A DNA stretch of 55,526 nucleotides, taken from the IMG/VR virus record IMGVR_UViG_3300006046_000007, positions 1-55,526 of that record. The stretch is one strand, 5' to 3'. A program made the position numbers and the translations under genes. The notes under the pieces are model-generated. The model saw only the letters and a program-made list of their open reading frames with translations, was not told the origin of the DNA and did no database searches. Of this stretch, positions 135 to 35,947 are shown piece after piece (position 1 is the stretch's first letter; each line of letters starts with the position of its first letter). The stretch comes from a virus. Taxonomy: Duplodnaviria; Caudoviricetes.

Positions 135-2888
135 CTAGGCGTTCGCAAGGTTGTCAGCAATGGTAGACCTAGGTATACCAAGGGCAGCAGCAATCTCGGA
201 TAGGCCACGACCTGAACCAGCCATGGACTTAGCCAATGCCAACTGTCCTGGTGTGAGTGATGATCTGTACCTTGGTGTTGCCAACTCCTTGACCCTGTCC
301 ATGTTGCTGTTGTTCAGTATCTCCCTCAACATTGTTGAAGACACAGCGCCTGCTTGAATAGCATCCCATTCGCGTTGCAAGAACGGTACGTGCTCAGACC
401 CAATCCTTTGCTTAGCTGCCCCTGTCTGCAGGCGTGCATCAGCAAGAGACTGATACTGTATCTTCTTAACGTCATCCTTATCAATGTTGGGATTAGCATC
501 TATTCTAGCTCTAGCTGTTGCGTTGCCAACGATCTGAGCACGGCGCTCTAGAGGGGCGTTCATCTGTGCCTCTTTAAGCTTAGCCTTTAGGGACGCTACC
601 TCTGGAGCATACTGTGCCTTAGCGCTCTTAGACTGTAGAGGATCCTTAATAGACACCGCTGTCTTACGTGCTGTGTTAGCCATAGCCTTCAACGCATTAG
701 CGTGTTGAGCATAGACTACTTCCATAGGTTCGCCAGATGAAAGCTTGTTCGCATCCTTAGTGATTGCTGAATCACCTTTAGCAAACTTACTCACTACTGG
801 TTCAGTAGTCGTAGTCTTTACACCGGTGCGGGCATTAGTTCTAGTAACAGTACGTGTTCTACCTGTAGGTACGTAAACTAATTCACCAGTCTTAGGGTCA
901 ATAGATCCACCCTCAGACGCACGACGTAACCGAAGCTGAGGAACCCTTTCTGTAGCTGACGATAGAGAGATGATAGTAGAAGCACCCTTTGTAGGACCGC
1001 CTTGCCACTTGGCCTTTAGTTGGGCAATGCCGTTGTCCTTCTCTGACTGCTTGTAATCAAGGGTATGCTTCTCTGCATCGATGACTACCATAGAATGCCG
1101 AATCGCACGTGAGATCTCTGCTCTATCAGCACCCTTAATAGTCATGTCCGTGATTAGGTTTGAAACCTTACCCATCTCTTTCTGAGTGTTAGCCTTCGTC
1201 ATCTTCGTCATACCCGAAACTTCAGGATACGCAGATTTAGGGTCGAAGTCACTAAGCTCTGTAAGAATAGGTTTAGACTTAACCTTGCCGCTGTTGTTAG
1301 GGATAACAAGAACAGCATCGCCATCGAAGTCGGCGCCAGACAACTGTTTTGCCACTGTATGGTGAATACCAATAGCATCCCTAGCATTACCCATAATACT
1401 CTTTGCTGTGCGGTTACTATTGTTTACCGTCAGCTGAGGTATCTCAAATGGGCCACCATGCGGATACCGAACGAGGGCTACCCTTTCTCCATTATTGAAG
1501 TTAGGCGCATAAACCTCGGTTGGCCGCATACTGTTCATAGGAAGAATAGCATGACTAGATTGGCGGGGTAGAGCAGCAGCTTTCAGATGTACCGATGCAG
1601 AATCTGCCGAAAGAGCGAAATCTTGCAACAATTGTTTCTTCACAACTGGATTAGTCAAAGCCAAGATGCCGTCAAGTTCTTTTTGTTTAGCATCACGCGT
1701 TTTCGCTAGTTGAGTAGCGGCCAACGTAATTGATTGCTTCGACAACATCTGTGAAGAAAGAGATCGAGCCCATCCGTCCCAAGCACCTTCCTCATTCACC
1801 ATGTTAAGTGAAGAGGTTCGTTCAACGCCCTTGCTATCCTTATATGTTACTGGATAAGTTGTTGCCCCGAATCGATTACCCGCATTTTCTGCGCCTTCTT
1901 TCAAAGGTTTCAAAATGGAGTTTTCTTTAGGGCCAAGCACAGGCGTACCTTTAGGTTTATTGGTGTTGAACCGAATGTCGGTGCCGGCTGGAAGATCATT
2001 AGCATAAATAGCCATGCCCTTGAGGTAATGAGTTCCGTCGACAGCAACTCGTACCTGAGCATAACGATTAGCACCTAGATCTAGTGATGGAACGCCACGA
2101 CGAAGCTCAATGACACCATCCATCTGACCGCCACCATCTTCAGCAAAACGAACTTGTAGCTTTTTAGAACTAACTGATACAGGTTCTGCTTTCGGAGTCG
2201 TAAATGTCAAACCACCATCATCTGACCGATCCTTGATGTTGTAAACAAGACCCGCATCAACTGCAGCTTTAGCTTGACGCCAAGTGCTTCCGGGAAGAGC
2301 TAGAATTTTCAACTCGGTCAACTTGTCAGTACCTAGTTGTGGAACTTTGACCAACCAAGTCTCATAACCCTCATCCTTCAATGCGGCAATCGCAGTACGA
2401 AGTTTAGTGTCAGCAACCCCAAGATAAAGCTCAGTTCCTTTACCAACATCCAACCAAGTCTTCGCATGAAGGTGATCTTTTAGAAGGTTAGAAATTGCTT
2501 GAAGAGTTTTGTCCTTGATGCCTTCAGATGTCTTCAACCACCCGCGAACTGTCGATTCTTTGTTTTCATCACCAAGCATTCGCTTAGCAATCGCACGAAC
2601 TGACATACCTTTGTCATTCTTAAGCTTTTGAGCCAAAGCTTGGTTCTCAGCGAAGATGACATTAGTTGAAACAGAGATAGCAGCACGAAGGTCTGTTGTC
2701 TTGATGCCCAACGTTTGCGCAATTTCGGTATCGCTCATTGGCGGATCTCCGTTGCGCATGGCGTCTAGATGAGCCTTGAAATCCTTAGACCTTTGGTAAG
2801 GAGTGCCACCGCTTCCCCAAGGATAACGGCCAGAACGTCGGATGATTCCAATGTGCTCTAGAACTTCTCCGTTTTCTTCAGGCTCCAC
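135..2888 (-). CDS. Putative single-chain two-barrel (DPBB) RNA polymerase with N- and C-terminal HTH motifs
   Basis: 917 aa; LSGADFDGD catalytic motif preceded by LVRYPHGGPFEI (R-x-P motif of RdRP/YonO-like enzymes); HTH-like segments SDTEIAQTLGI, SVRAIAKRM, LSEIAAALGIPRSTI. Confidence 0.8.
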   Translation of the reverse strand: MEPEENGEVLEHIGIIRRSGRYPWGSGGTPYQRSKDFKAHLDAMRNGDPPMSDTEIAQTLGIKTTDLRAAISVSTNVIFAENQALAQKLKNDKGMSVRAIAKRMLGDENKESTVRGWLKTSEGIKDKTLQAISNLLKDHLHAKTWLDVGKGTELYLGVADTKLRTAIAALKDEGYETWLVKVPQLGTDKLTELKILALPGSTWRQAKAAVDAGLVYNIKDRSDDGGLTFTTPKAEPVSVSSKKLQVRFAEDGGGQMDGVIELRRGVPSLDLGANRYAQVRVAVDGTHYLKGMAIYANDLPAGTDIRFNTNKPKGTPVLGPKENSILKPLKEGAENAGNRFGATTYPVTYKDSKGVERTSSLNMVNEEGAWDGWARSLSSQMLSKQSITLAATQLAKTRDAKQKELDGILALTNPVVKKQLLQDFALSADSASVHLKAAALPRQSSHAILPMNSMRPTEVYAPNFNNGERVALVRYPHGGPFEIPQLTVNNSNRTAKSIMGNARDAIGIHHTVAKQLSGADFDGDAVLVIPNNSGKVKSKPILTELSDFDPKSAYPEVSGMTKMTKANTQKEMGKVSNLITDMTIKGADRAEISRAIRHSMVVIDAEKHTLDYKQSEKDNGIAQLKAKWQGGPTKGASTIISLSSATERVPQLRLRRASEGGSIDPKTGELVYVPTGRTRTVTRTNARTGVKTTTTEPVVSKFAKGDSAITKDANKLSSGEPMEVVYAQHANALKAMANTARKTAVSIKDPLQSKSAKAQYAPEVASLKAKLKEAQMNAPLERRAQIVGNATARARIDANPNIDKDDVKKIQYQSLADARLQTGAAKQRIGSEHVPFLQREWDAIQAGAVSSTMLREILNNSNMDRVKELATPRYRSSLTPGQLALAKSMAGSGRGLSEIAAALGIPRSTIADNLANA

Positions 2889-16519: not shown

Positions 16520-16645
16520 GTTGTCTCCTTGGGTAGTGATGGTGTCATATAATGGCTTGTTTCTGACGCGAGATGGAGTGAAGGGGACCGACGGACTATG
16601 GCTGTAACTATCATCGGCCCCCTCCACGCTTTAGGGTTTAACCTA

Positions 16646-17681: not shown

Positions 17682-18503
17682 TCAGGAGTTAGGGTTGATT
17701 ACCCCATTATCGATAGCCCACACGTAGTCCTTGTAGTGGACGTTTATCACCTGGCTCTTCACCGTCCAACCCGGGAAGTCACCAGTGTACCTAAGCTTCT
17801 TGCGGCTCGGATTGATTGGTTTGGCAACTGAGTTTCCAGTCGAACCACGCACACAAGGCACATGGAACGGATCGGGATTGATCGTCGTGTTGTCATCCCA
17901 CATGTTTCCATTGACTAGGAAGTGGTCAAAGCCGCCAATGCCGACTTGACCGCATCGGAACCGTTGAAGATGGCCAGTTGCATCATTCTGATCAGATGTG
18001 AACCGGAAGTCGAGCCAACGAGGATCATACCAAGTGTGCCGAGTAGTAGAGCTGATCTGACGCCAGCAGTACTTATAGACGATTTCTGTTCGCGTCCTGA
18101 CCTTCACATAGTCAACAGTGATGACTGGACCAAGGATCCGCAATCCGTCAGGGACGAGCCCGTAATCGATTGCGACCTCACCCTCCCACTTGCAGTTGGT
18201 GGCAAGCTTAGTGATGTCCCACGGGTCGGTGTCGTCAGAGGTAATGGCCGCAACTGTGTCATCACCAGGGTAAAGACCTGCCTGAGCTGCGGTCGGCGCG
18301 TCTTCGAGGATAGTTGAAGTCCAAGGCCCGCCTGGTACCTGTGTCTGATCTGACTGGTAAGGATCACCAGCAGGCGTCAGTGGCAAGAAGCAGAAATCAT
18401 CGATGTCTGGGGGACAATCTGTATCTGCATTGGCCGATGGTGCCGACAGCATAGGCAAAGCAACTGCAATAGCCGCTGCGGCAATTATGGTTCTGATATT
18501 CAT
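17682..18503 (-). CDS. Secreted hypothetical protein
   Basis: Signal peptide MNIRTIIAAAAIAVALPMLSAPSANA; several Cys. Confidence 0.65.
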   Translation of the reverse strand: MNIRTIIAAAAIAVALPMLSAPSANADTDCPPDIDDFCFLPLTPAGDPYQSDQTQVPGGPWTSTILEDAPTAAQAGLYPGDDTVAAITSDDTDPWDITKLATNCKWEGEVAIDYGLVPDGLRILGPVITVDYVKVRTRTEIVYKYCWRQISSTTRHTWYDPRWLDFRFTSDQNDATGHLQRFRCGQVGIGGFDHFLVNGNMWDDNTTINPDPFHVPCVRGSTGNSVAKPINPSRKKLRYTGDFPGWTVKSQVINVHYKDYVWAIDNGVINPNS

Positions 18504-18896
18504 TTTACTCCTAGATAGATAAGATAGAGACCTGCAAGCACCAGTGCCCACATGCCAATGTAGATGATGGCAATGACGACAACGTTCTTAACGGTTGTCA
18601 ACCTAACCATTATGCCACCCCATTCAGAATTTGATATGCCTTGAAAACCAGTCGAGAAGCCATTTCAACCATCGAGACTCTACTCCCATAACCCCTCATC
18701 CGAGAAGAGCTATCATGTACTGAAGCCAGGTGCTGTGGTCTTCAGTAACGTGGTTTTGACTCGGATAATGACTGTGCCTTTCGGGCCGGCATAGTGTGCA
18801 ATTGGGACTAATGGGTCCTGGTTTAAGGTCTCTAGACCTATCGGCCCTATCGCAGATATCAGACATGTGTTTGATCCTCCTTTAGAGATGGGTAGA

Positions 18897-18929
18897 GGGC
18901 AGTTTTTTAAAGCAGGCATGCCCAGGCCT
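18897..18929 (-). ncRNA. Small H-type pseudoknot, copy A
   Basis: AGGC-CUGGGCAU-GCCU-GCUUUAAAAAAC-UGCCC; S1 AGGC/GCCU, S2 GGGCA/UGCCC. Confidence 0.65.
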
Positions 18930-19155
18930 CCACGGTGTCCCCGCTGTTTAATGTTACGGTAGGCTAGGAAGAATTCCTTGCAGGGAGCGCTTCCCGCTTC
19001 GGTCGGCTGCAACCGCCTTATCAAAGCTGACCTACCGGCGTTTTTTAACTACCTAACAATCCGCTGTACGTCGCTTCCTCCACCACGCGAACCTATGGCT
19101 CAGATGGTTTCACCAGTCGCTACGGAATGCCGTTCGGTCTACACCTGACCGCTCA
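18897..19155 (-). ncRNA. Structured RNA unit A (pistol-1 3' product)
   Basis: From the predicted cleavage site to pseudoknot A; stems CGGUAGG/CCUACCG and UUGCAG/CUGCAA. Confidence 0.5.
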
Positions 19156-19285
19156 CCCATTGGACGCCGGAAATGAGATCCCGTTCCGGTCTTTTACATC
19201 TGAGCTTCAGGAGAAGGAGATAACCCGCAGCTAGAGTCCAATGACGCACTAGGCCTAAGAGCTATTTATACTCGCCTAGTCGAGT
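19151..19285 (-). ncRNA. Pistol self-cleaving ribozyme 1
   Basis: ACUCG-ACUAGG-CGAGU-AUAAAUAG-CUC-UUAGG-CCUAGU-GCG-UCAUUGGAC[insert]GUCCAAUGG-GU-GAGC: P1, 6-bp pseudoknot, UAAAUAG, P2, GCG, P3 and GU site all present. Confidence 0.9.
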
Positions 19286-19686
19286 TACTCGTCTCTGCCG
19301 AAGGCCGAGTCGCGAGCCTTACGGAGGAGACGGATGGTTCGGTTGATGGCGCTCCGGTTGAACCAGGTCCAAAGACCATCAACGCCGGCCGTTGAGCCGG
19401 TGACTGCGTCCAAGCAGGCACGACCAAGTTTGTTCATGTACTCTGCTGCTGCGTCATCATCAACAGAGTCCTCAGGAACAAAGCCGAAGTCTTCTCGAAG
19501 TAGCTTGAAAAGGATTCTCCCGATCTCAGTCTGAGTAGTAGTCCCACCATAGACCTGATCGATGAAATGCAGTGTGGGTTGGTCGATACGAGATTCAAGA
19601 CCAACTCCAACAGAAGCCAGACCAGGATTCCACTGGACCAAGAGGTCGTAGGAGGCCTGATCTTCTGGGGTGATTCTTTCTTTCAT
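19285..19686 (-). CDS. Hypothetical protein
   Basis: 133 aa, AAAGG RBS; its stop codon abuts pistol 1. Confidence 0.75.
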   Translation of the reverse strand: MKERITPEDQASYDLLVQWNPGLASVGVGLESRIDQPTLHFIDQVYGGTTTQTEIGRILFKLLREDFGFVPEDSVDDDAAAEYMNKLGRACLDAVTGSTAGVDGLWTWFNRSAINRTIRLLRKARDSAFGRDE

Positions 19687-19850
19687 GGTGTTACCTTTCT
19701 TTTCGTTGGCTCCCGCTTATCGGGAGTAGATTGTCCTTGTTGTAGCCAGGCCCAGGACCTTCCCACAGGTTTAACATTTATCACCTGCGACCATGCGAGT
19801 ATTAGCGTCTCAAATGCTTCGACATTCTCGGGTTCATGATCGGCGATGTA

Positions 19851-20114
19851 TTATGAGAGATTTTGTCCCACGATCTGGTCGAACTGCCAGTTCGTAAGAA
19901 ACTTCTGGATCTCGGGGTCCAGCATGAGCTCTGGTCGATCGCGCTCCACGACATCAGTCATAAGACGACCGAACTCGATGAGTTGCAAGTTGCTCTCAAC
20001 CAATATCCGATTAGCCTTACGAAGCTTTGAAGTGATCTGCCACCAACCAATTTGGTTAGCGAGAAAGGCGATCTTAATTAGGGCGATTCGTGTTGCCGGG
20101 TCCATCTTCTTCAT
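19851..20114 (-). CDS. Hypothetical protein
   Basis: 87 aa ORF with AAGGAG RBS. Confidence 0.65.
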   Translation of the reverse strand: MKKMDPATRIALIKIAFLANQIGWWQITSKLRKANRILVESNLQLIEFGRLMTDVVERDRPELMLDPEIQKFLTNWQFDQIVGQNLS

Positions 20115-20152
20115 CGATAACTCCTTAGATAGGGGATGATGGGATGTGTTTG

Positions 20153-20305
20153 CTAACGATTGAGGACCACCAGAAAGAAGTATAGGGCTAGGAAGAACAG
20201 CCCGAAAGCAAGGAAGTCAATCTTCTTCTTTGCGAATTCGAAAATGAACCCTAGCGCAAACGCGAACACGGAAAGGAGCAAAATGATGAAGTAGAACGTA
20301 TGCAT
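20153..20305 (-). CDS. Small two-TM membrane protein (MHTFYFIILL...)
   Basis: 50 aa, AGGAGG RBS, two hydrophobic helices. Confidence 0.7.
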   Translation of the reverse strand: MHTFYFIILLLSVFAFALGFIFEFAKKKIDFLAFGLFFLALYFFLVVLNR

Positions 20306-20487
20306 GATGCCTCCTATGTTTGAATGGAGAGGAGGACAAGACCCACGAAAATCCCATCCCCCTCTCCTACTGTAGGTAGCGTTTTCAATTGACTTTAATC
20401 ACTTCGACTCATCGCACTTCGATCCGGCCAAAGGTGTTGCCCAAACCTCACGATTTCACCAATGAACTACGCTACAGTGACTTGAGG

Positions 20488-20514
20488 GGGCCTTTTTGCC
20501 GCATGCCCAGGCGG
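20488..20514 (-). ncRNA. Small H-type pseudoknot, copy B
   Basis: CCGC-CUGGGCAU-GCGG-CAAAAAG-GCCC. Confidence 0.65.
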
Positions 20515-20683
20515 GATCTTTAATCGGTAAGGTGCCCGGGTCTCCGCCCAGTGGTCTGCAACCTTTCTGCTTCGTCACCCTTGCAGAGGGTGCTTATTGA
20601 CGCAAGAACACGCCTTTTATGTACCTTACCTACGGCTAAGGGAGTGACTGGTTAGCAACGCCAATTCACTTGCCGATTTCCCA
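20488..20683 (-). ncRNA. Structured RNA unit B (pistol-2 3' product)
   Basis: Stems GGUAAGGU/ACCUUACC and UCUGCAA/UUGCAGA; ends in pseudoknot B. Confidence 0.5.
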
Positions 20684-20814
20684 CGACGCGGCTGGTAGTT
20701 GTCCATGTCGGTGAAAACACCTGTCGACTACCAATTACTTCCAAGCTCAAGGCCTGTAACTTGGAACCGCGCCCGCTCTGAGCCTAAGGTCTATTTAACC
20801 TCGCTCAGACGAGG
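20680..20814 (-). ncRNA. Pistol self-cleaving ribozyme 2
   Basis: CCUCG-UCUGAG-CGAGG-UUAAAUAG-ACC-UUAGG-CUCAGA-GCG-GGCGCGGUU[insert]AGCCGCGUC-GU-GGG; core intact, P2 weak (two C-G pairs plus A.G). Confidence 0.8.
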
Positions 20815-20853
20815 GAGTAGTTTAGTGTGGATCGAGGTCATGCTCAGGACCCC
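20815..20853 (-). ncRNA. Small H-type pseudoknot, copy C
   Basis: GGGGUC-CUGAGCAU-GACCUC...UAAAC-UACUC; abuts pistol 2. Confidence 0.55.
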
Positions 20854-20959
20854 GCAATGAGGCATTCAGTTGAACATCTATAGTGGGCGTTACCCACCAT
20901 CCGTCATCGAACTCACCTCCATCTAAATATGCACGCTCTTTCGAGCCTGACTATAGTAG

Positions 20960-21039
20960 CTCGCACGACGGGATTCGAACCCGCATACGCCGCCCTGGAT
21001 GTCCAGGCCCGAACGCTTTACCAATTAAGTTACATGCGA
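20960..21039 (-). tRNA. tRNA-like element with extended, non-canonical anticodon arm
   Basis: Acceptor UCGCAUG/CGUGCGA, D arm ACUU-AAUUGGUA-AAGC, T arm GCGGG-UUCGAAU-CCCGU; anticodon/variable region 29 nt instead of ~22, with CCUGG-ACAU-CCAGG hairpin; 3' end G-CUA, not CCA. Confidence 0.7.
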
Positions 21040-21086
21040 TGCCTCCCTAACCGTCACACTCGGGGGAACGCAGACGGCTAGAAACT

Positions 21087-21188
21087 CTAGTACCTTCGCT
21101 TCTTTGACGGATTCGTGTTGAAGACCCACGAATAGATCAAGCAGAAGAGAAGAATGGCGAAGACCACACCAATAACAAGTCGGACCAT
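21087..21188 (-). CDS. Small membrane peptide (MVRLVIGVVF...)
   Basis: 33 aa, AAGGAG RBS, one TM helix. Confidence 0.55.
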   Translation of the reverse strand: MVRLVIGVVFAILLFCLIYSWVFNTNPSKKRRY

Positions 21189-21595
21189 AATAACTCCTTT
21201 TATGTGATAGTTAGATCTTGACTACGTTGCGAAACAAAGAACTCTCATCGTGTGAGGTGAAGACGTACATCTCGAAAAAGACCATTGGTACGAAGAACTG
21301 GCAGTCCAAAGGCGAGCCCTCGTCACGTAGGAACCAGCCTTCTTCGTGCTCCTCAAGCCACTGTAAGGCCATCTCTAAGTCAAAATCTCGTCCTGCCTCG
21401 CTCCGAATCACACCTCGAAGATTCTCTGGTGTAATCTTGATTGCGTAAGCTTGCACAGGACGGCCTCTCACTTAGATGTGATCCACTGAATAAGCTCGAC
21501 AAACCCCCACCCGAACAAGAAAACGATTGCTAGAATGATGAAAACAATCACCCAAACAACGCCCCAGGCGAACTGATTGGTCTTTTTCTCATCCA

Positions 21596-22072
21596 TCAGA
21601 TCTCCTCGTAGTCAGCATACTTGGCCGCGAAACGGGATTCCTTGACCTTGGCATAGAGTTCTTTGACGTATGCCGTGATCCCAGAGTTCTGTCCATTCAC
21701 CCAACGAGATGGAGTGATGATAACATCGAGTTGCTCAAGAGTGTCTCGACGAATATCAGCTAGGTCACGTTCTGTTGCACGAAGCTTTCGCTCTCCCTTA
21801 AGAAGGTAGATCTTAGGCGGTTCGAACTTGTAAGAGATCTTGATCTTTAGCAGGTGCTCGTCAGGATCGCCTTCCTCATACCCAGGCATATCTCGTACTG
21901 CCCAGCCATCAGCGCGCATCTTGTCTGCAATCTCCTCAGATAGCATGGCAGTGAAGTTATGAGCACCTTCTGCGTTGAACGTGTCTTCCCGTCCATCGAA
22001 ATGCGAGAATGCCCACTTGACCTTGACGTCTTCAAGCTCGACATCGTTGACCCAATTACGATCTTCAGGCAT
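21596..22072 (-). CDS. Putative single-stranded DNA-binding protein
   Basis: F-x-G-RE..FN.EG..NF and ITAYVKELY patterns, acidic C-tail, located in the replication region. Confidence 0.6.
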   Translation of the reverse strand: MPEDRNWVNDVELEDVKVKWAFSHFDGREDTFNAEGAHNFTAMLSEEIADKMRADGWAVRDMPGYEEGDPDEHLLKIKISYKFEPPKIYLLKGERKLRATERDLADIRRDTLEQLDVIITPSRWVNGQNSGITAYVKELYAKVKESRFAAKYADYEEI

Positions 22073-24728
22073 TACGACTCGCCCCCTTGTTCGGGTTGAA
22101 GTCACAGTTCGGGTTGGTGGGGTTGTGGTAAGGACTGCACCCATCACTCAAGACCTCAGGTACTGGTTCCTGAGTCACGGGCGTCTCTACGACATCCTCC
22201 GACTCGACTTCATCTTCCTTCGGCTCAGGAACGTCCAACCCGTCGACGATCTGTTCCACTTCCCCTGCAGGCTGATGAAGGAGAATCTTGTTAAGAGCCG
22301 ACCGGTGTCGCTTGGCGTGGAATCGATGCTGCTTAGCAACAGAAAGGCACCATTGGTTAACTGTCTCGTTCTTGAGCTTCGGGGCCAGATTTTCGGCGAA
22401 TTCAGCGATATCTTCGTTGTATGTGATGGCATCTTCGTGATAGGCCTGGTCTTTTTGCATCAGGTCGTCTCTCTTCTTTCTCTGGTATTCTGAACAGGGA
22501 TAGCAGTGATCATCACTGCAATAGGTTCAGCCTGTTCAAGGAACTCAGCCAACATCTGCCCGTTAAGTCCAACGGCACTGATTTCAATCAGCACTTTGTC
22601 GGGCTCTCGGGAGATTACTGCATGTCCCATAATGTGCTTGTAGTTGGATCCGATAACTACCGGAACGGCACGTTCAGTACGTCGAGCCTTGTCAGCCACT
22701 AACCGCCGCCTCTTCTAGTTCGCGACGCTGACGTGCCTGAGCCGCCAGAAGGTCCTGACAGTGTAGACAGTTTTTGTCGATCTTCTTCCACGAATGCTTC
22801 TGGTCATGGTTGTTGCGCTGATTTTCTCGAGCGCGATGCTCTAGGCGACCCCGCTCTAGCTCCTGAGCCTTCTGCCCGGAACGCTTCACGTCTTCCAAGA
22901 ACTTAGCTCTCTTTGCGAGAGCTTGTTCGTGCTTCTGCTTACGAGTAGCCATGATGTCTCCTAAATATAGATGGTTACCGATGGTTGGTGATCTTGGTTC
23001 GTCCTCGTTTAGCTTCTTCTGTTGCTTTGTTGATGGCTTTGACGCCCTCTTTGAATGCCCGGTCCATATCAGCGCTTGCACGCCTAATGGCATCGGTCAT
23101 TTCTCGAAACGAAGCTTGAATTGCTGCTGAATCTTCCGGCGAGATCTCAAGGTAGACCTTTGCCGGCTCAGCTGTCCTTCGGTGCCAAAATGCCATGTCT
23201 ACCTCCCTCTCGGTCGTGGCAGTCGAACGCCTGCATACCCCTTGATGGCTGCTTTGAGTAGGATCTCTTCGCACTCCTTGACCGAGTAGCCTAGAAGCTT
23301 AGCGGTCTCTTTTATGTTTCCGGCGTTCAAGAGAACGTAGGGCTCTCGACCTTTGTCCTTTCTTCTTACTCGGTTTGACATCTGATAGGTCCTTTTCTTC
23401 GACATGCCCTAGGGAGAGGCAAGATATAGATTGATCGACAATCTGATGATACTGCTTATCTGTGATCACAGCAGACATGTCCATGTAGTTGCCATCCGTA
23501 TCTACGACAGCCTCTCCAATGACCTTACGGACACCATCTTCGTAGACGACTAGAGGGACCCGTTGAGTACTCATCTCACTCCTCGATGATGTCCAGAATG
23601 TTCAAGATCATGCTTTGCACGGTTGAACACGGCTGCTCCACAGTCGAGACATTCGTACAATCCGGCGATGAGCGGGCCTCTGTAACGTTCTTTCCACCCG
23701 TTCACTTGTGATCGAGATTCTTGAGTACCTCATCCAAAGGAGTAGCCATGATGTGCCCCGGCTGATTCCTCGTTGCTTTAGCGATCTCCTGCATCGTCAC
23801 CCAGTAACGAACACGAAGCGGGAGTCGACTAGCCATTTCCATCGCTGCCCACTCTCGAGTTCGCCGAAGCCGCTCCATAGTGGACATAGATGGAAGAGTC
23901 CAAATCGTTTTCAAACGCATGGCTCTTTCCTTTCTATGCGAGTTATTCTTTCCTAGTTAATCATTCGATAGCTTCTTTAACCTTGGCGAGCTGTTGATCT
24001 CTGTTAACATGAAAAGGGTCATGTATCGATCCTCGAAGCCGTCTTTTGTCTCTATCCGAGAGTGAGTTAAAGAACGCTTGGCCTAAGCGCTGTTTTCCTC
24101 TTATGAAGTATTTAAACTTCTCGAGGTCTCCTCCATGAGTGACTAAATATTCTTTAACTAGAGTTGAGGTGGATTCAGGCATTACTTTTTCACCGAAGTC
24201 CAACCGCATCGAGCACAGTGAAGTTCCATCCGACTGTTGTAGGTCGCTGCATCAAGTTGGTGACCCATTGCCCAACAGACGTACTTGTTGCTGACAGACT
24301 TTGCAATATCAGTAATGGACTTCCAGAAGATCATTAGACATCGTCTTCCTCGAACGGGTTGGGGAGGTCGGGATGATCTCCATTGACGTGCTTCTTGGCT
24401 CGGTCCTCAGCTGCTTTCGTGTTTCCTCCGGTGTAGGGACGATCATCACAGTAAGGGCAATAGACGGTTGTTACTGAGGTGGTTTCACTATCCATCATTC
24501 ACCTTTCTTGGTCGAAGATCGTGAGCGCGAATATCGATGATCTGGATGCGACTGCTGGTATTACCCCAAGTTCCTTCGGGAGAATGTCCTCTTGCGACAC
24601 CTCGATCTGAGTTCTGACCATGCTCGAAAGCAGCACTAGCGATCTGCACTGCGTCGCTGATAGAGTTGGCTGTGACCTCGACCTCACGAGTCTGAGTCAC
24701 AACGAAATGTTTCATCTCAGGCATAACG
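22065..24728 (-). CDS. Run of small hypothetical genes
   Basis: ORFs 22065-22460, 22460-22699, 22692-22952, 23299-23574, 23702-23920, 23961-24182 and neighbours. Confidence 0.6.
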
Positions 24729-26392: not shown

Positions 26393-26421
26393 TCTCATTT
26401 AGTGCGTTGTTTTTACCGCGA
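26393..26421 (-). promoter_or_regulatory. Phage promoter-like motif copy
   Basis: TCGCG-GTAA-AAACAA-CGCACTAA-ATGAGA. Confidence 0.75.
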
Positions 26422-31592: not shown

Positions 31593-32465
31593 TCAGATGA
31601 GATCCCAGATGACCCCATCGATGTTGAAGTTGAGACGCGCAGTACGTTCTTTGCCGTTGCGGAATGCAATAGCTTGCGGGTCTTGACTAGACATGAAACC
31701 AAAGTCGACAAACCCGTCGCCATCACCGTCTAGCAACCATCCTGCCACGATTGTCTCCCTCGTTCGAGGAATGCCGAGAGCATCGTAAACCTCGAACAGA
31801 AACACATGCCCCTTGATTTCGAGTACTCGGTTCATATGGTTCTGAACGCTCTTTAGGAACAAGAAATTCGTGGTTGCGTCTCGAGTCCAGTTGGGGTTGG
31901 CCTCATCGAAGAAAGGTCGTAGGTAAGAGTCGGGCTGATCCGTGAACTTTGGCATCAGCTTGTATTCACCCTTGTGGTCGGGGTCTTCCTCCCATTGACC
32001 AACCGCACCGTCGTAAATATTCCGCTCCATCTCAGGACCGACAGTCTCTGAGACCCGTGCACGATATGCTTGGTACTGCTCCATTAGACCGGTGTAGGCA
32101 GCCATCGTAGCAAGATGACGACCTCGTAGAACCCGGTGCCCATACAGAACGCTAGCTGCCGAAAGCGTACCTACGGCCAATGTAGGACCGTAAAGCTTGA
32201 GCAACTCGATTGATGTGGCTCCGTAAAGGCTCACGACCTGCTTCTGCTCGTCCCGTGCGGTCACGGCGTTAGCAGCAATGTCGATACGCACTTTGGCATG
32301 CTCATCGAGAATGGGGTCAAGCTTGCGCGTGGCCTTTGCAGCCAAGACTGCCGTAGCTCCAAGGCCCACGACACCCGTAACGACCAAGATGGTCGGGCTG
32401 TGCTTGTTCAGCTTGAGTAGCTGACGACTACCAAACCTTGTAAGGCTGGTCGGGACGTATTTCAT
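31593..32465 (-). CDS. DUF6353-like protein, paralogue 1
   Basis: KHSPTILVVTGVVG...LAAKAT; GHVFL.EVYDALG; FNIDG. Confidence 0.65.
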   Translation of the reverse strand: MKYVPTSLTRFGSRQLLKLNKHSPTILVVTGVVGLGATAVLAAKATRKLDPILDEHAKVRIDIAANAVTARDEQKQVVSLYGATSIELLKLYGPTLAVGTLSAASVLYGHRVLRGRHLATMAAYTGLMEQYQAYRARVSETVGPEMERNIYDGAVGQWEEDPDHKGEYKLMPKFTDQPDSYLRPFFDEANPNWTRDATTNFLFLKSVQNHMNRVLEIKGHVFLFEVYDALGIPRTRETIVAGWLLDGDGDGFVDFGFMSSQDPQAIAFRNGKERTARLNFNIDGVIWDLI

Positions 32466-35173: not shown

Positions 35174-35947
35174 CTACGGACAGCCCATGTTCTCTTTTGG
35201 GGCCTCGTGAAACCAGATGCTATGGGCGAGACGACCGTCCTTGGCAGTCACCGAACCGAATCGTCCTTCAACCTTGCTGCCTCCAGACCATCCGAACGAG
35301 TTGCCCATGGGAATTGGAGGCAACCCGACATACTCATAGAAGTCATTGAGGCTGGCGTCACCGTTGTCAATGATCAGTCGGTTGATGTTATTGATCGCGC
35401 TCTCGAGATTAGCAAACGATCCCGTAAAATATCGACCAGACCAATCATCGTAACAAAGCTCATCGCCATTGCTGGTGATCATAACTTCTGTGTTCTCATC
35501 GAACGGGTTACGGTCGATCTGCTTCTGAGCCACATCGTTCTGAAGTTGTTGGGTCTTCTTGGGCCCCAACGCTTTCTCGGCCTCAGTAGTCAGATCATCC
35601 AGTCGGTTACTGGTGACGGCGTATAGAGCAGCTACAGCACTGGCACGCTTGGTCAAAACTGCATGTCCGCCAATGGCTGCTGCGATTGAGCCAGAGGCTG
35701 ACAGTGCCGGCAACGTATAACACGGCCAGGTCAGTCGAACGATCTCTTGAGTTGTCAGAGGCGCTGACGTCTCATATGAGTCACGTTCTGCCTGAGCCTC
35801 ATCGACGATGCCACGAGCGTTCCAACCAGCCTTGGCAGCAAGCACCCCGGTTGTCACGACACCAGCGATAGTTGTACCGAGCAACAGCACTGGGCTGTTC
35901 GCGGTGATGACGGACTTGGCCGTCTTAACGTAAGATGCTAGATTCAT
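35174..35947 (-). CDS. DUF6353-like protein, paralogue 2
   Basis: NSPVLLLGTTIAGVVTTGVLAAKA; CYDDWSGRYF; SLNDFY..GL. Confidence 0.65.
   Translation of the reverse strand: MNLASYVKTAKSVITANSPVLLLGTTIAGVVTTGVLAAKAGWNARGIVDEAQAERDSYETSAPLTTQEIVRLTWPCYTLPALSASGSIAAAIGGHAVLTKRASAVAALYAVTSNRLDDLTTEAEKALGPKKTQQLQNDVAQKQIDRNPFDENTEVMITSNGDELCYDDWSGRYFTGSFANLESAINNINRLIIDNGDASLNDFYEYVGLPPIPMGNSFGWSGGSKVEGRFGSVTAKDGRLAHSIWFHEAPKENMGCP

What the first reader, a model, noticed from the sequence alone, without database searches (positions are those of the whole stretch)
20957..21039. tRNA mimic with intact elbow but no usable anticodon loop
Seen: acceptor, D (GG) and T (UUCGAAU) arms look canonical, but the anticodon arm is ~7 nt too long, capped by CCUGG-ACAU-CCAGG, and the 3' end reads G-CUA. 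Inference: it is unlikely to decode; it may be a processing signal for RNase P/Z that releases the downstream RNA, or a decoy for host anticodon nucleases or tRNA-binding defence proteins.
Basis: partly seen in the sequence, partly recalled or inferred. Interest (0 to 1): 0.7.

Follow-up and report, generated by a model that had tools for sequence, protein, structure and literature searches.

The report
Anticodon-less tRNA look-alike in phage
An uncultured soil phage carries a tRNA-shaped RNA gene with an intact, conserved upper half but a closed hairpin where the codon-reading loop should be, so it probably marks a cutting site for host tRNA-trimming enzymes in a long phage message; no cut has been shown.

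Summary
The 7-bp acceptor stem, D arm (GG), T arm (UUCGAAU) and 5-nt variable loop are canonical. The anticodon arm is 24 nt and ends in CCUGG-ACAU-CCAGG (pair probabilities >=0.988). ARAGORN's "tRNA-Ser(GGA)" is a forced fit (3 of 5 stem pairs; -9.3 against -29.6 kcal/mol). Infernal scores 37.3 bits only by skipping the arm.

The window is a ~93% complete siphophage related to Gordonia Deejayvirinae. Two of 29 related metagenomic loci (L014, L021; SSAP 63-70% identical) carry a matching element at the same place. All 36 acceptor and T-stem cells pair, 4 of 12 pairs show two-sided changes, and the arms (30, 27, 40 nt) are unalignable and hold no 7-nt loop. That argues against simple decay.

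In 10 relatives a pistol ribozyme follows the same gene. The nearest promoter-like motif lies 5.4 kb upstream. Best reading (0.45): a non-decoding tRNA top-half mimic cut by RNase P and RNase Z, like plant mitochondrial t-elements. No RNA ends were seen, and the decoy idea has no support. "G-CUA" is normal for this phage family.

Earlier notes of this scan describe similar elements beside pistol ribozymes in other phages.

The parts
20960..21039 (-). tRNA-like element, position 1 (21039) to discriminator G (20960), 80 nt
   Evidence: ARAGORN; Rfam RF00005 at 37.3 bits; folds
21033..21039 (-). acceptor stem, 5' strand UCGCAUG; pairs with 20961-20967 (CGUGCGA), 7 of 7 pairs including one U.G
21015..21030 (-). 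D arm ACUU-AAUUGGUA-AAGC: 3 pairs plus an A.C mismatch; G18G19 present
   Evidence: and the sequence
20990..21013 (-). over-long 'anticodon' arm, 24 nt (positions 27-50), irregular stem
20994..21007 (-). terminal hairpin CCUGG-ACAU-CCAGG: 5 perfect pairs and a 4-nt loop, which takes the place of the anticodon loop
   Evidence: pair probabilities 0.988-1.000
20985..20989 (-). 5-nt variable loop CGUAU (class-I length)
   Evidence: fold; my numbering
20968..20984 (-). T arm GCGGG-UUCGAAU-CCCGU, 5 of 5 pairs
20957..20959 (-). 3' trailer CUA; no encoded CCA
21087..21188 (-). 33-codon single-TM micro-ORF with an AAGGAG ribosome-binding site, ending 47 nt before the element (read by eye)
   Evidence: sequence; comparable TM micro-ORFs precede the homologues in L014 and L021
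21211..21471 (-). 86-aa gene conserved in 21 of 29 related loci; the variable cargo region starts after it
21596..22072 (-). single-strand annealing protein (PF24083, phrog_4787), the anchor used to find relatives
20765..20814 (-). pistol ribozyme 1 (Rfam core match); starts 143 nt after the element's trailer begins
   Evidence: 46.9 bits against 34.5
19219..19285 (-). pistol ribozyme 2, starting at the stop codon of ORF 19285-19686; it matches the pistol that directly follows the 86-aa gene in relatives
   Evidence: 45.0 bits; blastn
26398..26421 (-). nearest upstream copy of the 24-nt promoter-like motif; the next copy downstream is at 16548-16571
   Evidence: 19 matches against 4.4 expected; none credible between 16571 and 26398

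Best explanation
The element is a non-decoding tRNA look-alike, probably descended from a real phage tRNA gene. Only its 'top half' is maintained: the 12-bp acceptor/T-arm helix plus the D/T-loop elbow.

It is transcribed as an internal part of a long early/middle phage message that runs SSAP, 86-aa gene, TM micro-peptide, tRNA-like, pistol ribozyme and further genes. I propose that host RNase P cuts at its 5' end (between 21040 and 21039). RNase Z or an equivalent 3' pathway would cut after the discriminator (20960). The message is thereby split between cistrons, and an ~80-nt tRNA-shaped by-product is released that may receive CCA.

In this reading it does the same job as the pistol self-cleaving ribozymes at the equivalent position in sister phages, and it resembles the t-elements of plant mitochondria.

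Shown: the anatomy; the absence of a usable anticodon loop; homologues at the same place; structure-preserving change limited to the top half.
Inferred: co-transcription, cleavage by RNase P and RNase Z, and any effect on gene expression.
For: (1) No decoding loop. The hairpin pairs have probability >=0.988 and ARAGORN's stem 0.000; energies are -9.3 against -20.9 and -29.6 kcal/mol. Infernal skips the arm.

(2) Homologues. L014:2353-2443 and L021:1241-1318 lie in the same order on the same strand, SSAP, (86-aa gene), TM micro-ORF, element. Their phages are 63-70% identical to the window in SSAP protein.

(3) Selection on the top half only. 36 of 36 acceptor and T-stem cells are paired. 4 of 12 pairs show two-sided (compensatory) change and 1 shows one-sided change. 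U8, GG and the T loop UUCGANU are kept in all three. The region between the D and T arms is 30, 27 and 40 nt, cannot be aligned and has different loops.

(4) Position. The element is intergenic. No sigma-70-like promoter was found in 18500-22500, where shuffles give a mean of 3.3. No credible copy of the phage's promoter-like motif lies between 16571 and 26398.

(5) Equivalent site in relatives. 10 of the 29 loci have a pistol ribozyme 3 to 985 nt after the 86-aa gene.

(6) Precedent. tRNA-like t-elements with the GGTTCRANYCC T-arm motif direct RNase P and RNase Z cuts that form mRNA ends in Arabidopsis mitochondria (PMC1920247, passages read).
Against: - No RNA end was observed. The two metatranscriptome runs gave only Logan contigs, at 21097-21247 and 20711-20933. 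None covers the element, and contigs cannot show ends.
- There are only three family members. Part of the 'compensatory' signal could date from before the anticodon was lost, or from separate captures of related tRNAs.
- The arms fold no better than shuffled sequence (z = -1.10, -1.12, +0.01), so nothing shows that the hairpin itself is selected.
- 8 related loci with sequence beyond the 86-aa gene have neither element within the DNA held. Gordonia phage Tanis has neither. The function is therefore dispensable.
- A pistol ribozyme already lies 143 nt downstream in the window, so a second cutter looks redundant.
- Low-scoring, aberrant tRNA-likes are also common inside tRNA arrays of unrelated IMG/VR phages. 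Such elements could be frequent by-products of tRNA gene turnover.
- Top-half conservation fits a trans-acting tRNA mimic equally well.
Confidence: 0.45

Rival explanations
1. Plain pseudogene. A once-functional phage tRNA (perhaps tRNA-Asn-like) lost its anticodon loop and is decaying, with no present function.
For: - Sister phages carry ordinary tRNAs in the same variable region: L006 Leu-UAA at 59 bits and L020 Lys-UUU at 67.9 bits. tRNA genes therefore come and go here.
- The arms are no more stable than shuffles.
- Aberrant tRNA-likes are frequent in unrelated phage tRNA arrays.
- The closest full-length phage tRNA to L021 is tRNA-Asn(GTT) of Streptomyces phage Success, with 75% identity over 78% of the query at a weak E = 0.06.
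Against: - Three phages only 63-70% identical in a neighbouring protein all keep 12 of 12 acceptor and T pairs, four of them through two-sided changes. The arm meanwhile is scrambled in sequence and length.
- Neutral decay should damage all parts alike.
- No homologue with a normal anticodon arm was found among the 29 loci.
Confidence: 0.2
2. Trans-acting tRNA mimic. The released ~80-nt RNA is itself the product. It could bind or saturate a host factor that reads the tRNA body, such as a defence nuclease or sensor, a modification enzyme, the CCA-adding enzyme or EF-Tu, or it could be charged for a non-ribosomal use.
For: - The same top-half conservation applies.
- Phage tRNAs are documented counter-measures to tRNA-cleaving defences. 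I saw only the titles and abstract openings of PMC10264068, PMC11464382 and PMC11555353 in the search listing.
- Stable tRNA-like RNAs of unknown function are long known in T-phages (recalled, and an earlier scan note).
Against: - There is no conserved loop or arm motif that could mimic an anticodon loop.
- No G3.U70 alanine identity pair is present.
- No Y-RNA (YrlA) match appears at E<=1 in 18900-21400.
- Neighbouring proteins have no informative family matches.
- The element has no promoter of its own.
Confidence: 0.2
3. Working tRNA-Ser(GGA), as ARAGORN labels it.
For: ARAGORN call; Rfam score above the cut-off.
Against: - The anticodon stem has 3 of 5 pairs, with G.A and C.U mismatches.
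- Position 37 is C.
- The 10-nt 'variable arm' has no stem, whereas bacterial tRNA-Ser needs a long paired one (established knowledge).
- That fold is about 20 kcal/mol worse than the MFE, and its pairs have probability 0.000.
Confidence: 0.03
4. Module-junction relic. Conserved RNA folds (tRNA top half, pistol) mainly serve as homology patches where cargo cassettes are exchanged between phages.
For: - The window carries ~2 kb (about 21286-19289) that L004-L007 and L010-L012 lack. This stretch holds the tRNA-like element. Homology resumes at the pistol-2 sequence.
- An RNA contig in run X10 diverges from the window exactly at 19286 (table 7).
Against: - Compensatory changes in stems point to selection at the RNA level, not the DNA level.
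- The idea does not conflict with the main reading.
Confidence: 0.07

Closest known systems
t-elements of plant mitochondria (Forner et al. 2007, PMC1920247; passages read)
   Same: - A non-canonical cloverleaf with a well-kept T arm (GGTTCRANYCC; here GGGTTCGAATCCC) embedded in longer transcripts between genes.
- t-elements are proposed, and partly shown, to direct RNase P and RNase Z cuts that create mRNA ends.
- They are released as small RNAs that can receive non-encoded C/A.
   Different: - Organelle versus DNA phage of (probably) Actinomycetota.
- Cleavage here is untested.
- Here the element alternates with a self-cleaving ribozyme at the same site in sister genomes.
mascRNA / MALAT1-type tRNA-like 3'-end signals (recalled; no call)
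   Same: A tRNA-shaped module with a reduced, non-decoding anticodon arm, used only as an RNase P/Z substrate.
   Different: Eukaryotic nuclear lncRNAs. There is no sequence relation. This comparison is from memory and was not tested.
tRNA-like stable RNAs of T-phages (T5 RNA1, T4 species RNAs; recalled, and an earlier scan note)
   Same: Phage-encoded, tRNA-shaped, non-decoding, function unsettled.
   Different: Those lie in or beside tRNA clusters. This one is the only tRNA-type gene of its genome and sits inside a protein-coding operon. No sequences were compared here.
Theta (minimal HDV-like) ribozymes beside phage tRNAs (PMC10879173; listing plus 2 passages)
   Same: A phage pairing of a tRNA-type gene with a small self-cleaving ribozyme downstream.
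   Different: - Theta ribozymes abut working, often suppressor, tRNAs.
- Here the ribozyme is a pistol that starts 143 nt away, and the tRNA-type gene cannot decode.
Canonical tRNA (Rfam RF00005); nearest full-length match is tRNA-Asn(GTT) of Streptomyces phage Success
   Same: Acceptor, D and T arms and the variable-loop length. The D arm and T loop of L021 nearly match the Success tRNA-Asn.
   Different: No 5-bp stem with a 7-nt loop. The match is weak (E = 0.06) and was found with L021, not with the window element, whose own search gave only T-arm hits.
YrlA / bacterial and phage Y RNAs with a tRNA-like domain (PMC4201824, listing only; Rfam RF02553)
   Same: A tRNA-like top half joined to a non-anticodon helix. 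These are known in actinobacteria and their phages.
   Different: No Rfam Y-RNA match at E<=1. The ends lie at the acceptor stem rather than at the long helix, and the arm is not conserved.

Membership tests
Decoding tRNA (RF00005) | 7-bp acceptor stem, T arm with a TPsiC-type loop, D arm with GG | tested here: met
   7 of 7 and 5 of 5 pairs, UUCGAAU, G18G19; 37.3 bits against a cut-off of 29
Decoding tRNA (RF00005) | 5-bp anticodon stem closing a 7-nt loop with U33 and a purine at 37 | tested here: not met
   The only candidate (ARAGORN) has 3 of 5 pairs and C37. Its pairs have probability 0.000, against >=0.988 for the competing hairpin. Infernal leaves the arm unaligned.
Bacterial tRNA-Ser (class II) | long variable arm with a paired stem | tested here: not met
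   ARAGORN's drawing shows a 10-nt unpaired stretch
tRNA-like processing element (t-element type) | non-canonical cloverleaf with a conserved T-arm motif inside a longer transcript | tested here: met
   Anatomy. The element is intergenic with no promoter-like site nearby. Co-transcription is inferred.
tRNA-like processing element (t-element type) | RNA termini that coincide with the element's ends; cleavage by RNase P and RNase Z | not testable with these tools
   Only assembled RNA contigs were available, and none lies on the element.
tmRNA | tRNA-like domain plus a tag reading frame | tested here: not met
   ARAGORN -m found nothing in 20800-21200. No Rfam tmRNA hit in the window.
Y RNA / YrlA | match to RF02553, or a conserved Ro60-binding helix | tested here: not met
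   No such match at E<=1 in 18900-21400. The arms of the three homologues share no motif.
Pistol ribozyme (neighbouring elements, RF02679) | score above Rfam's gathering cut-off | tested here: met
   46.9 and 45.0 bits against 34.5. In Rfam's compact alignment of copy 1 the two unpaired cleavage-site columns read GC, not GU.

The most novel reading that the evidence does not exclude
Actinobacterial siphophages of this group punctuate long early transcripts with interchangeable RNA 'scissor' cassettes. One type is a pistol ribozyme that cuts itself. The other is a tRNA top-half mimic that recruits host RNase P and RNase Z. The tRNA-like element would then be a phage counterpart of mitochondrial t-elements. 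The choice of cassette sets the end chemistry of the flanking mRNAs (3'-OH/5'-P versus 2',3'-cyclic phosphate/5'-OH) and so their stability and translation.
Probability: 0.3. Interest if true: 0.7.

Novelty: new variant of a known kind. Interest (0 to 1): 0.5.

Why it matters
If the reading is right, a DNA phage uses the host's tRNA-maturation enzymes to cut its own polycistronic messages. That mechanism is established for organelles and a few eukaryotic lncRNAs, but my literature searches (listings only) turned up no description of it in phage operons.

It would also give pistol ribozymes, whose biological role is still open, a concrete job, because they occupy the same site.

In practice, gene callers will keep labelling such elements as odd tRNAs (here 'tRNA-Ser'). 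That label misleads codon-usage and host-prediction work.

Tried and rejected
- Relatives by DNA: blastn of 19000-22000 against 'phages' gave only short pistol matches.
- Relatives by the SSAP protein or its 35-sequence alignment A1: none in viral contigs or genome contigs.
The homologue set stayed at 29 metagenome loci.
- Ancestral tRNA: blastn of the window element against 'phages' gave T-arm hits only. The L021 element gave one weak full-length hit, to a tRNA-Asn.
- MAFFT alignments of the elements (A2, A3, A4) misplace the 5' ends and arms, so pair counts were made by position in a script. No covariance model was built.
- My permissive tRNA-shape scan was noise. The stricter one printed 17 rows. 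I kept 6 as tRNA-shaped: L006, L014, L020 twice, L021 and the window. I dropped 11 by eye. One was an overlapping longer variant of an L020 row. The others were long matches inside coding sequence without a D arm.
- A CYACTATAG repeat right after the element is not enriched in the genome (12 matches against 13.2 expected). I dropped it as a promoter idea.
- A resemblance I saw by eye between the sequences downstream of the window and L014 elements was not reproduced by MAFFT.
- RNA evidence: reads were laid once. The RNA runs X10 and X11 gave 6 and 1 contigs on 18000-22500, with none on 20934-21096. The DNA runs X3 and X4 also leave 20886-21008 uncovered. This says nothing either way.
- No integrase was seen among the 30 ORFs I scanned, but the genome was not scanned in full. 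An attP reading was set aside mainly because both tRNA halves are present and the changes are compensatory.
- Gordonia phage Tanis, the nearest named relative, has no tRNA or pistol in 41000-59727.
- Supplementary files of papers were not requested.

Full report
WHAT IS THERE. The window is a single IMG/VR virus record of 55,526 bp, about 93% complete by CheckV. Essentially all genes lie on the minus strand.

Gene content:
- tape-measure and other tail genes;
- a 1,223-aa primase-polymerase;
- a helicase;
- a single-strand annealing protein (SSAP, PF24083);
- a 917-aa protein of phrog_4291, annotated 'RNA-dependent RNA polymerase', which is a two-barrel polymerase type.

The primase-polymerase is 56% identical to those of Gordonia phages of the Deejayvirinae (Tanis, Gravy, Kerry), which share the gene order. 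The host is therefore probably an actinobacterium. That is an inference.

THE ELEMENT. ARAGORN finds one tRNA-type gene in the whole genome, at 20959-21039 on the minus strand, and labels it tRNA-Ser(GGA). Rfam's tRNA model scores 37.3 bits against a cut-off of 29.

Read 5'->3' on the minus strand the element is: UCGCAUG UA ACUU-AAUUGGUA-AAGC G [24-nt arm] CGUAU GCGGG-UUCGAAU-CCCGU CGUGCGA G, then CUA.

The acceptor stem (7 of 7 pairs), T arm (5 of 5 pairs, UUCGAAU), U8, G18G19 and a 5-nt variable loop are canonical. The arm is 7 nt longer than an anticodon arm and ends in CCUGG-ACAU-CCAGG.

ARAGORN's drawing needs an anticodon stem with G.A and C.U mismatches, C at position 37 and a 10-nt unpaired 'variable arm'. 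That cloverleaf evaluates to -9.3 kcal/mol. A cloverleaf with the long arm gives -20.9 and the MFE gives -29.6. The five hairpin pairs have probabilities of 0.988 to 1.000, and ARAGORN's stem pairs have 0.000. Infernal reaches its score by leaving the arm out as a local end.

Folding energy as such is not unusual (z = -1.31 for the whole element; z = -1.10 for the arm). The 3' 'G-CUA' is also ordinary. The normal tRNAs of sister phages end A-CUA, A-CUC and A-CGU, with no encoded CCA.

RELATIVES. No close relative exists among 50,697 phage records. A 35-sequence SSAP alignment found none in IMG/VR or in species genomes either. A scan of JGI and other metagenome contigs returned 29 loci, L003-L031. 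tblastn shows a conserved order: primase-polymerase, several small genes, SSAP, an 86-aa gene, then a variable region.

All 29 loci were scanned with ARAGORN, with Rfam (20 loci and 19, together covering all 29) and with a structural script. The results:
- Pistol ribozymes occur in 10 loci (L004, 5, 6, 7, 10, 11, 12, 16, 20, 26), starting 3 to 985 nt after the 86-aa gene.
- Normal tRNAs: L006 Leu-UAA (59 bits), L020 Lys-UUU (67.9 bits) and L020 with anticodon ACA (50 bits).
- Two further aberrant tRNA-likes: L021:1241-1318 (31.1 bits) and L014:2353-2443 (missed by both programs, found by its T arm).
- Eight loci with DNA beyond the 86-aa gene show neither element.

Gordonia phage Tanis has none either.

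THE THREE ELEMENTS COMPARED. L014 and L021 sit where the window element sits. They are on the SSAP strand and follow a small single-TM ORF (window micro-ORF 21188-21087 read). SSAP proteins of the three phages are 63-70% identical.

- Acceptor stems are UCGCAUG/CGUGCGA, GUGCGUG/CACGCAU and GUGCGUG/CACGCAC.
- All 21 acceptor cells and all 15 T-stem cells are paired.
- Acceptor pairs 1, 2 and 5 and T pair 1 change on both sides. Acceptor pair 6 changes on one side.
- U8, GG and UUCGANU are kept.
- The stretch between the D and T arms is 30, 27 and 40 nt. It cannot be aligned. It ends in different small hairpins: CCUGG-ACAU-CCAGG, an 8-pair bulged stem with a 3-nt loop, and CCUC-GCUA-GAGG. It folds no better than shuffles (z = -1.10, -1.12, +0.01).

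The pattern is purifying selection on the acceptor/T helix and elbow and none visible on the arm. That is the opposite of what a decoding tRNA needs. It is what RNase P, RNase Z and the CCA-adding enzyme read (established knowledge of these enzymes).

A weak lead to ancestry: L021 matches tRNA-Asn(GTT) of Streptomyces phage Success over 78% of its length at 75% identity, E = 0.06. The window element gave only T-arm matches.

CONTEXT AND MECHANISM. None lies between 16571 and 26398, and the single hit at 20307 lacks the GCGA end. No sigma-70-like site was found in 18500-22500. The element therefore most likely lies inside a long transcript that starts near 26.4 kb. That is an inference.

A pistol ribozyme starts 143 nt downstream (20814-20765) and a second lies at 19285-19219. 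Compared with L004-L007 and L010-L012, the window holds about 2 kb of extra cargo (about 21286-19289), which includes the element. Homology resumes at the second pistol.

A self-cutting RNA thus occupies, in ten sister phages, the slot that the tRNA-like fills in three. This is my main reason to read the element as an RNA-cutting mark serviced by host RNase P and RNase Z. The nearest described analogue is the plant mitochondrial t-element (PMC1920247, passages read).

WHAT IS NOT SHOWN. No RNA end was seen. Two soil metatranscriptome runs hold small contigs from the region (21097-21247; 20711-20933, the latter spanning an uncut pistol 1), but none lies on the element, and contigs cannot show ends. 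With three members, some of the compensatory signal could predate loss of the anticodon.

Aberrant low-scoring tRNA-likes are also common in tRNA arrays of unrelated IMG/VR phages. One example is L070:463-540, whose arm is likewise closed by a tetraloop (by-eye reading of the sequence printed; 42.3 bits). Others are in L043 and L040. This shows either that the phenomenon is wider or that tRNA decay is frequent.

The decoy idea has no positive evidence. The arms share no loop or motif, no Y-RNA model matches, and neighbouring proteins are uninformative.

PRIOR NOTES. Earlier entries of this scan describe anticodon-less tRNA look-alikes next to pistol ribozymes in other phage genomes, with the same t-element comparison (e1-6144679, e1-5897904, e1-3509718). 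They are unchecked notes and not independent evidence, but they show the theme recurs. No look-alike stretch of this region is recorded in other windows.

LITERATURE. Searches by words listed work on theta ribozymes beside phage tRNAs, on phage tRNAs that evade anticodon nucleases, on Y RNAs and on novel cloverleaves. For these I saw titles and abstract openings only, plus two passages of PMC10879173. None of the listed titles or abstract openings describes tRNA-like punctuation of phage operons. That is a statement about these four searches only.

VERDICT. The element is a conserved, non-decoding tRNA top-half mimic. Its function as an RNase P/Z processing signal is the best-supported inference (0.45) and remains untested. 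It is a new variant of a known kind and of moderate interest.

Noticed in passing
window 20765-20814 and 19219-19285 (minus strand): Two pistol ribozymes (46.9 and 45.0 bits). In Rfam's compact alignment of the first, the two unpaired cleavage-site columns read GC instead of the consensus GU and P3 is collapsed to 1 nt.
   Followed up: partly
window 3815-38980, e.g. 26398-26421 and 16548-16571: A 24-nt motif (plus-strand form AT-N7-TTGTTT-N5-GCGA) occurs 17 times in one orientation, against 4.4 chance matches expected. It is clustered in micro-gene cassettes at 15.9-16.6 kb and 35-39 kb, and it is probably the promoter of the phage's own polymerase.
   Followed up: partly
window 135-2888 (minus strand): A 917-aa protein matches phrog_4291 end to end (annotated 'RNA-dependent RNA polymerase'). 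The same gene ends the genome of Gordonia phage Tanis (gp92).
   Followed up: no
window about 19289-21286, against L004-L007 and L010-L012: About 2 kb of extra cargo in the window: TM micro-ORF, tRNA-like, pistol 1, an ORF-poor stretch and three small ORFs. Homology to the relatives resumes at the pistol-2 sequence. An RNA contig of run X10 diverges from the window exactly at 19286.
   Followed up: partly
L020:2175-2250: A structurally normal tRNA (50 bits) with anticodon ACA in a sister phage. A at position 34 is unusual outside tRNA-Arg.
   Followed up: no
L014:2159-2284 and L021 (frame ending at 1014): A conserved single-TM micro-protein with a C-terminal GIW.F...I.W.TSK motif lies upstream of the tRNA-like elements. 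The window has a different 33-aa TM peptide at 21188-21087.
   Followed up: no
L070:463-540 and 2152-2232; L038:3283-3368 = L060:11262-11347; L043:3462-3537; L040:3062-3139: Unrelated IMG/VR phages carry low-scoring (35-42 bits) tRNA-likes, several inside arrays of normal tRNAs. The L070 element shares the window's 5' acceptor strand (UCGCAUG), and by eye its arm is closed by a GUAC tetraloop.
   Followed up: partly
L036 (minus strand; 78-nt element found): A tRNA with anticodon CUA (amber suppressor type, labelled 'Pyl' by ARAGORN) in an unrelated viral contig.
   Followed up: no
window 31593-32465 and 35174-35947 (minus strand): Two paralogous DUF6353 proteins (E = 3e-53 and 3e-52).
   Followed up: no
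window 20951-20959 and 20878-20886 (minus strand): Two exact copies of CYACTATAG lie 73 nt apart, just after the tRNA-like element. The motif is not enriched genome-wide (12 matches against 13.2 expected with one mismatch).
   Followed up: yes
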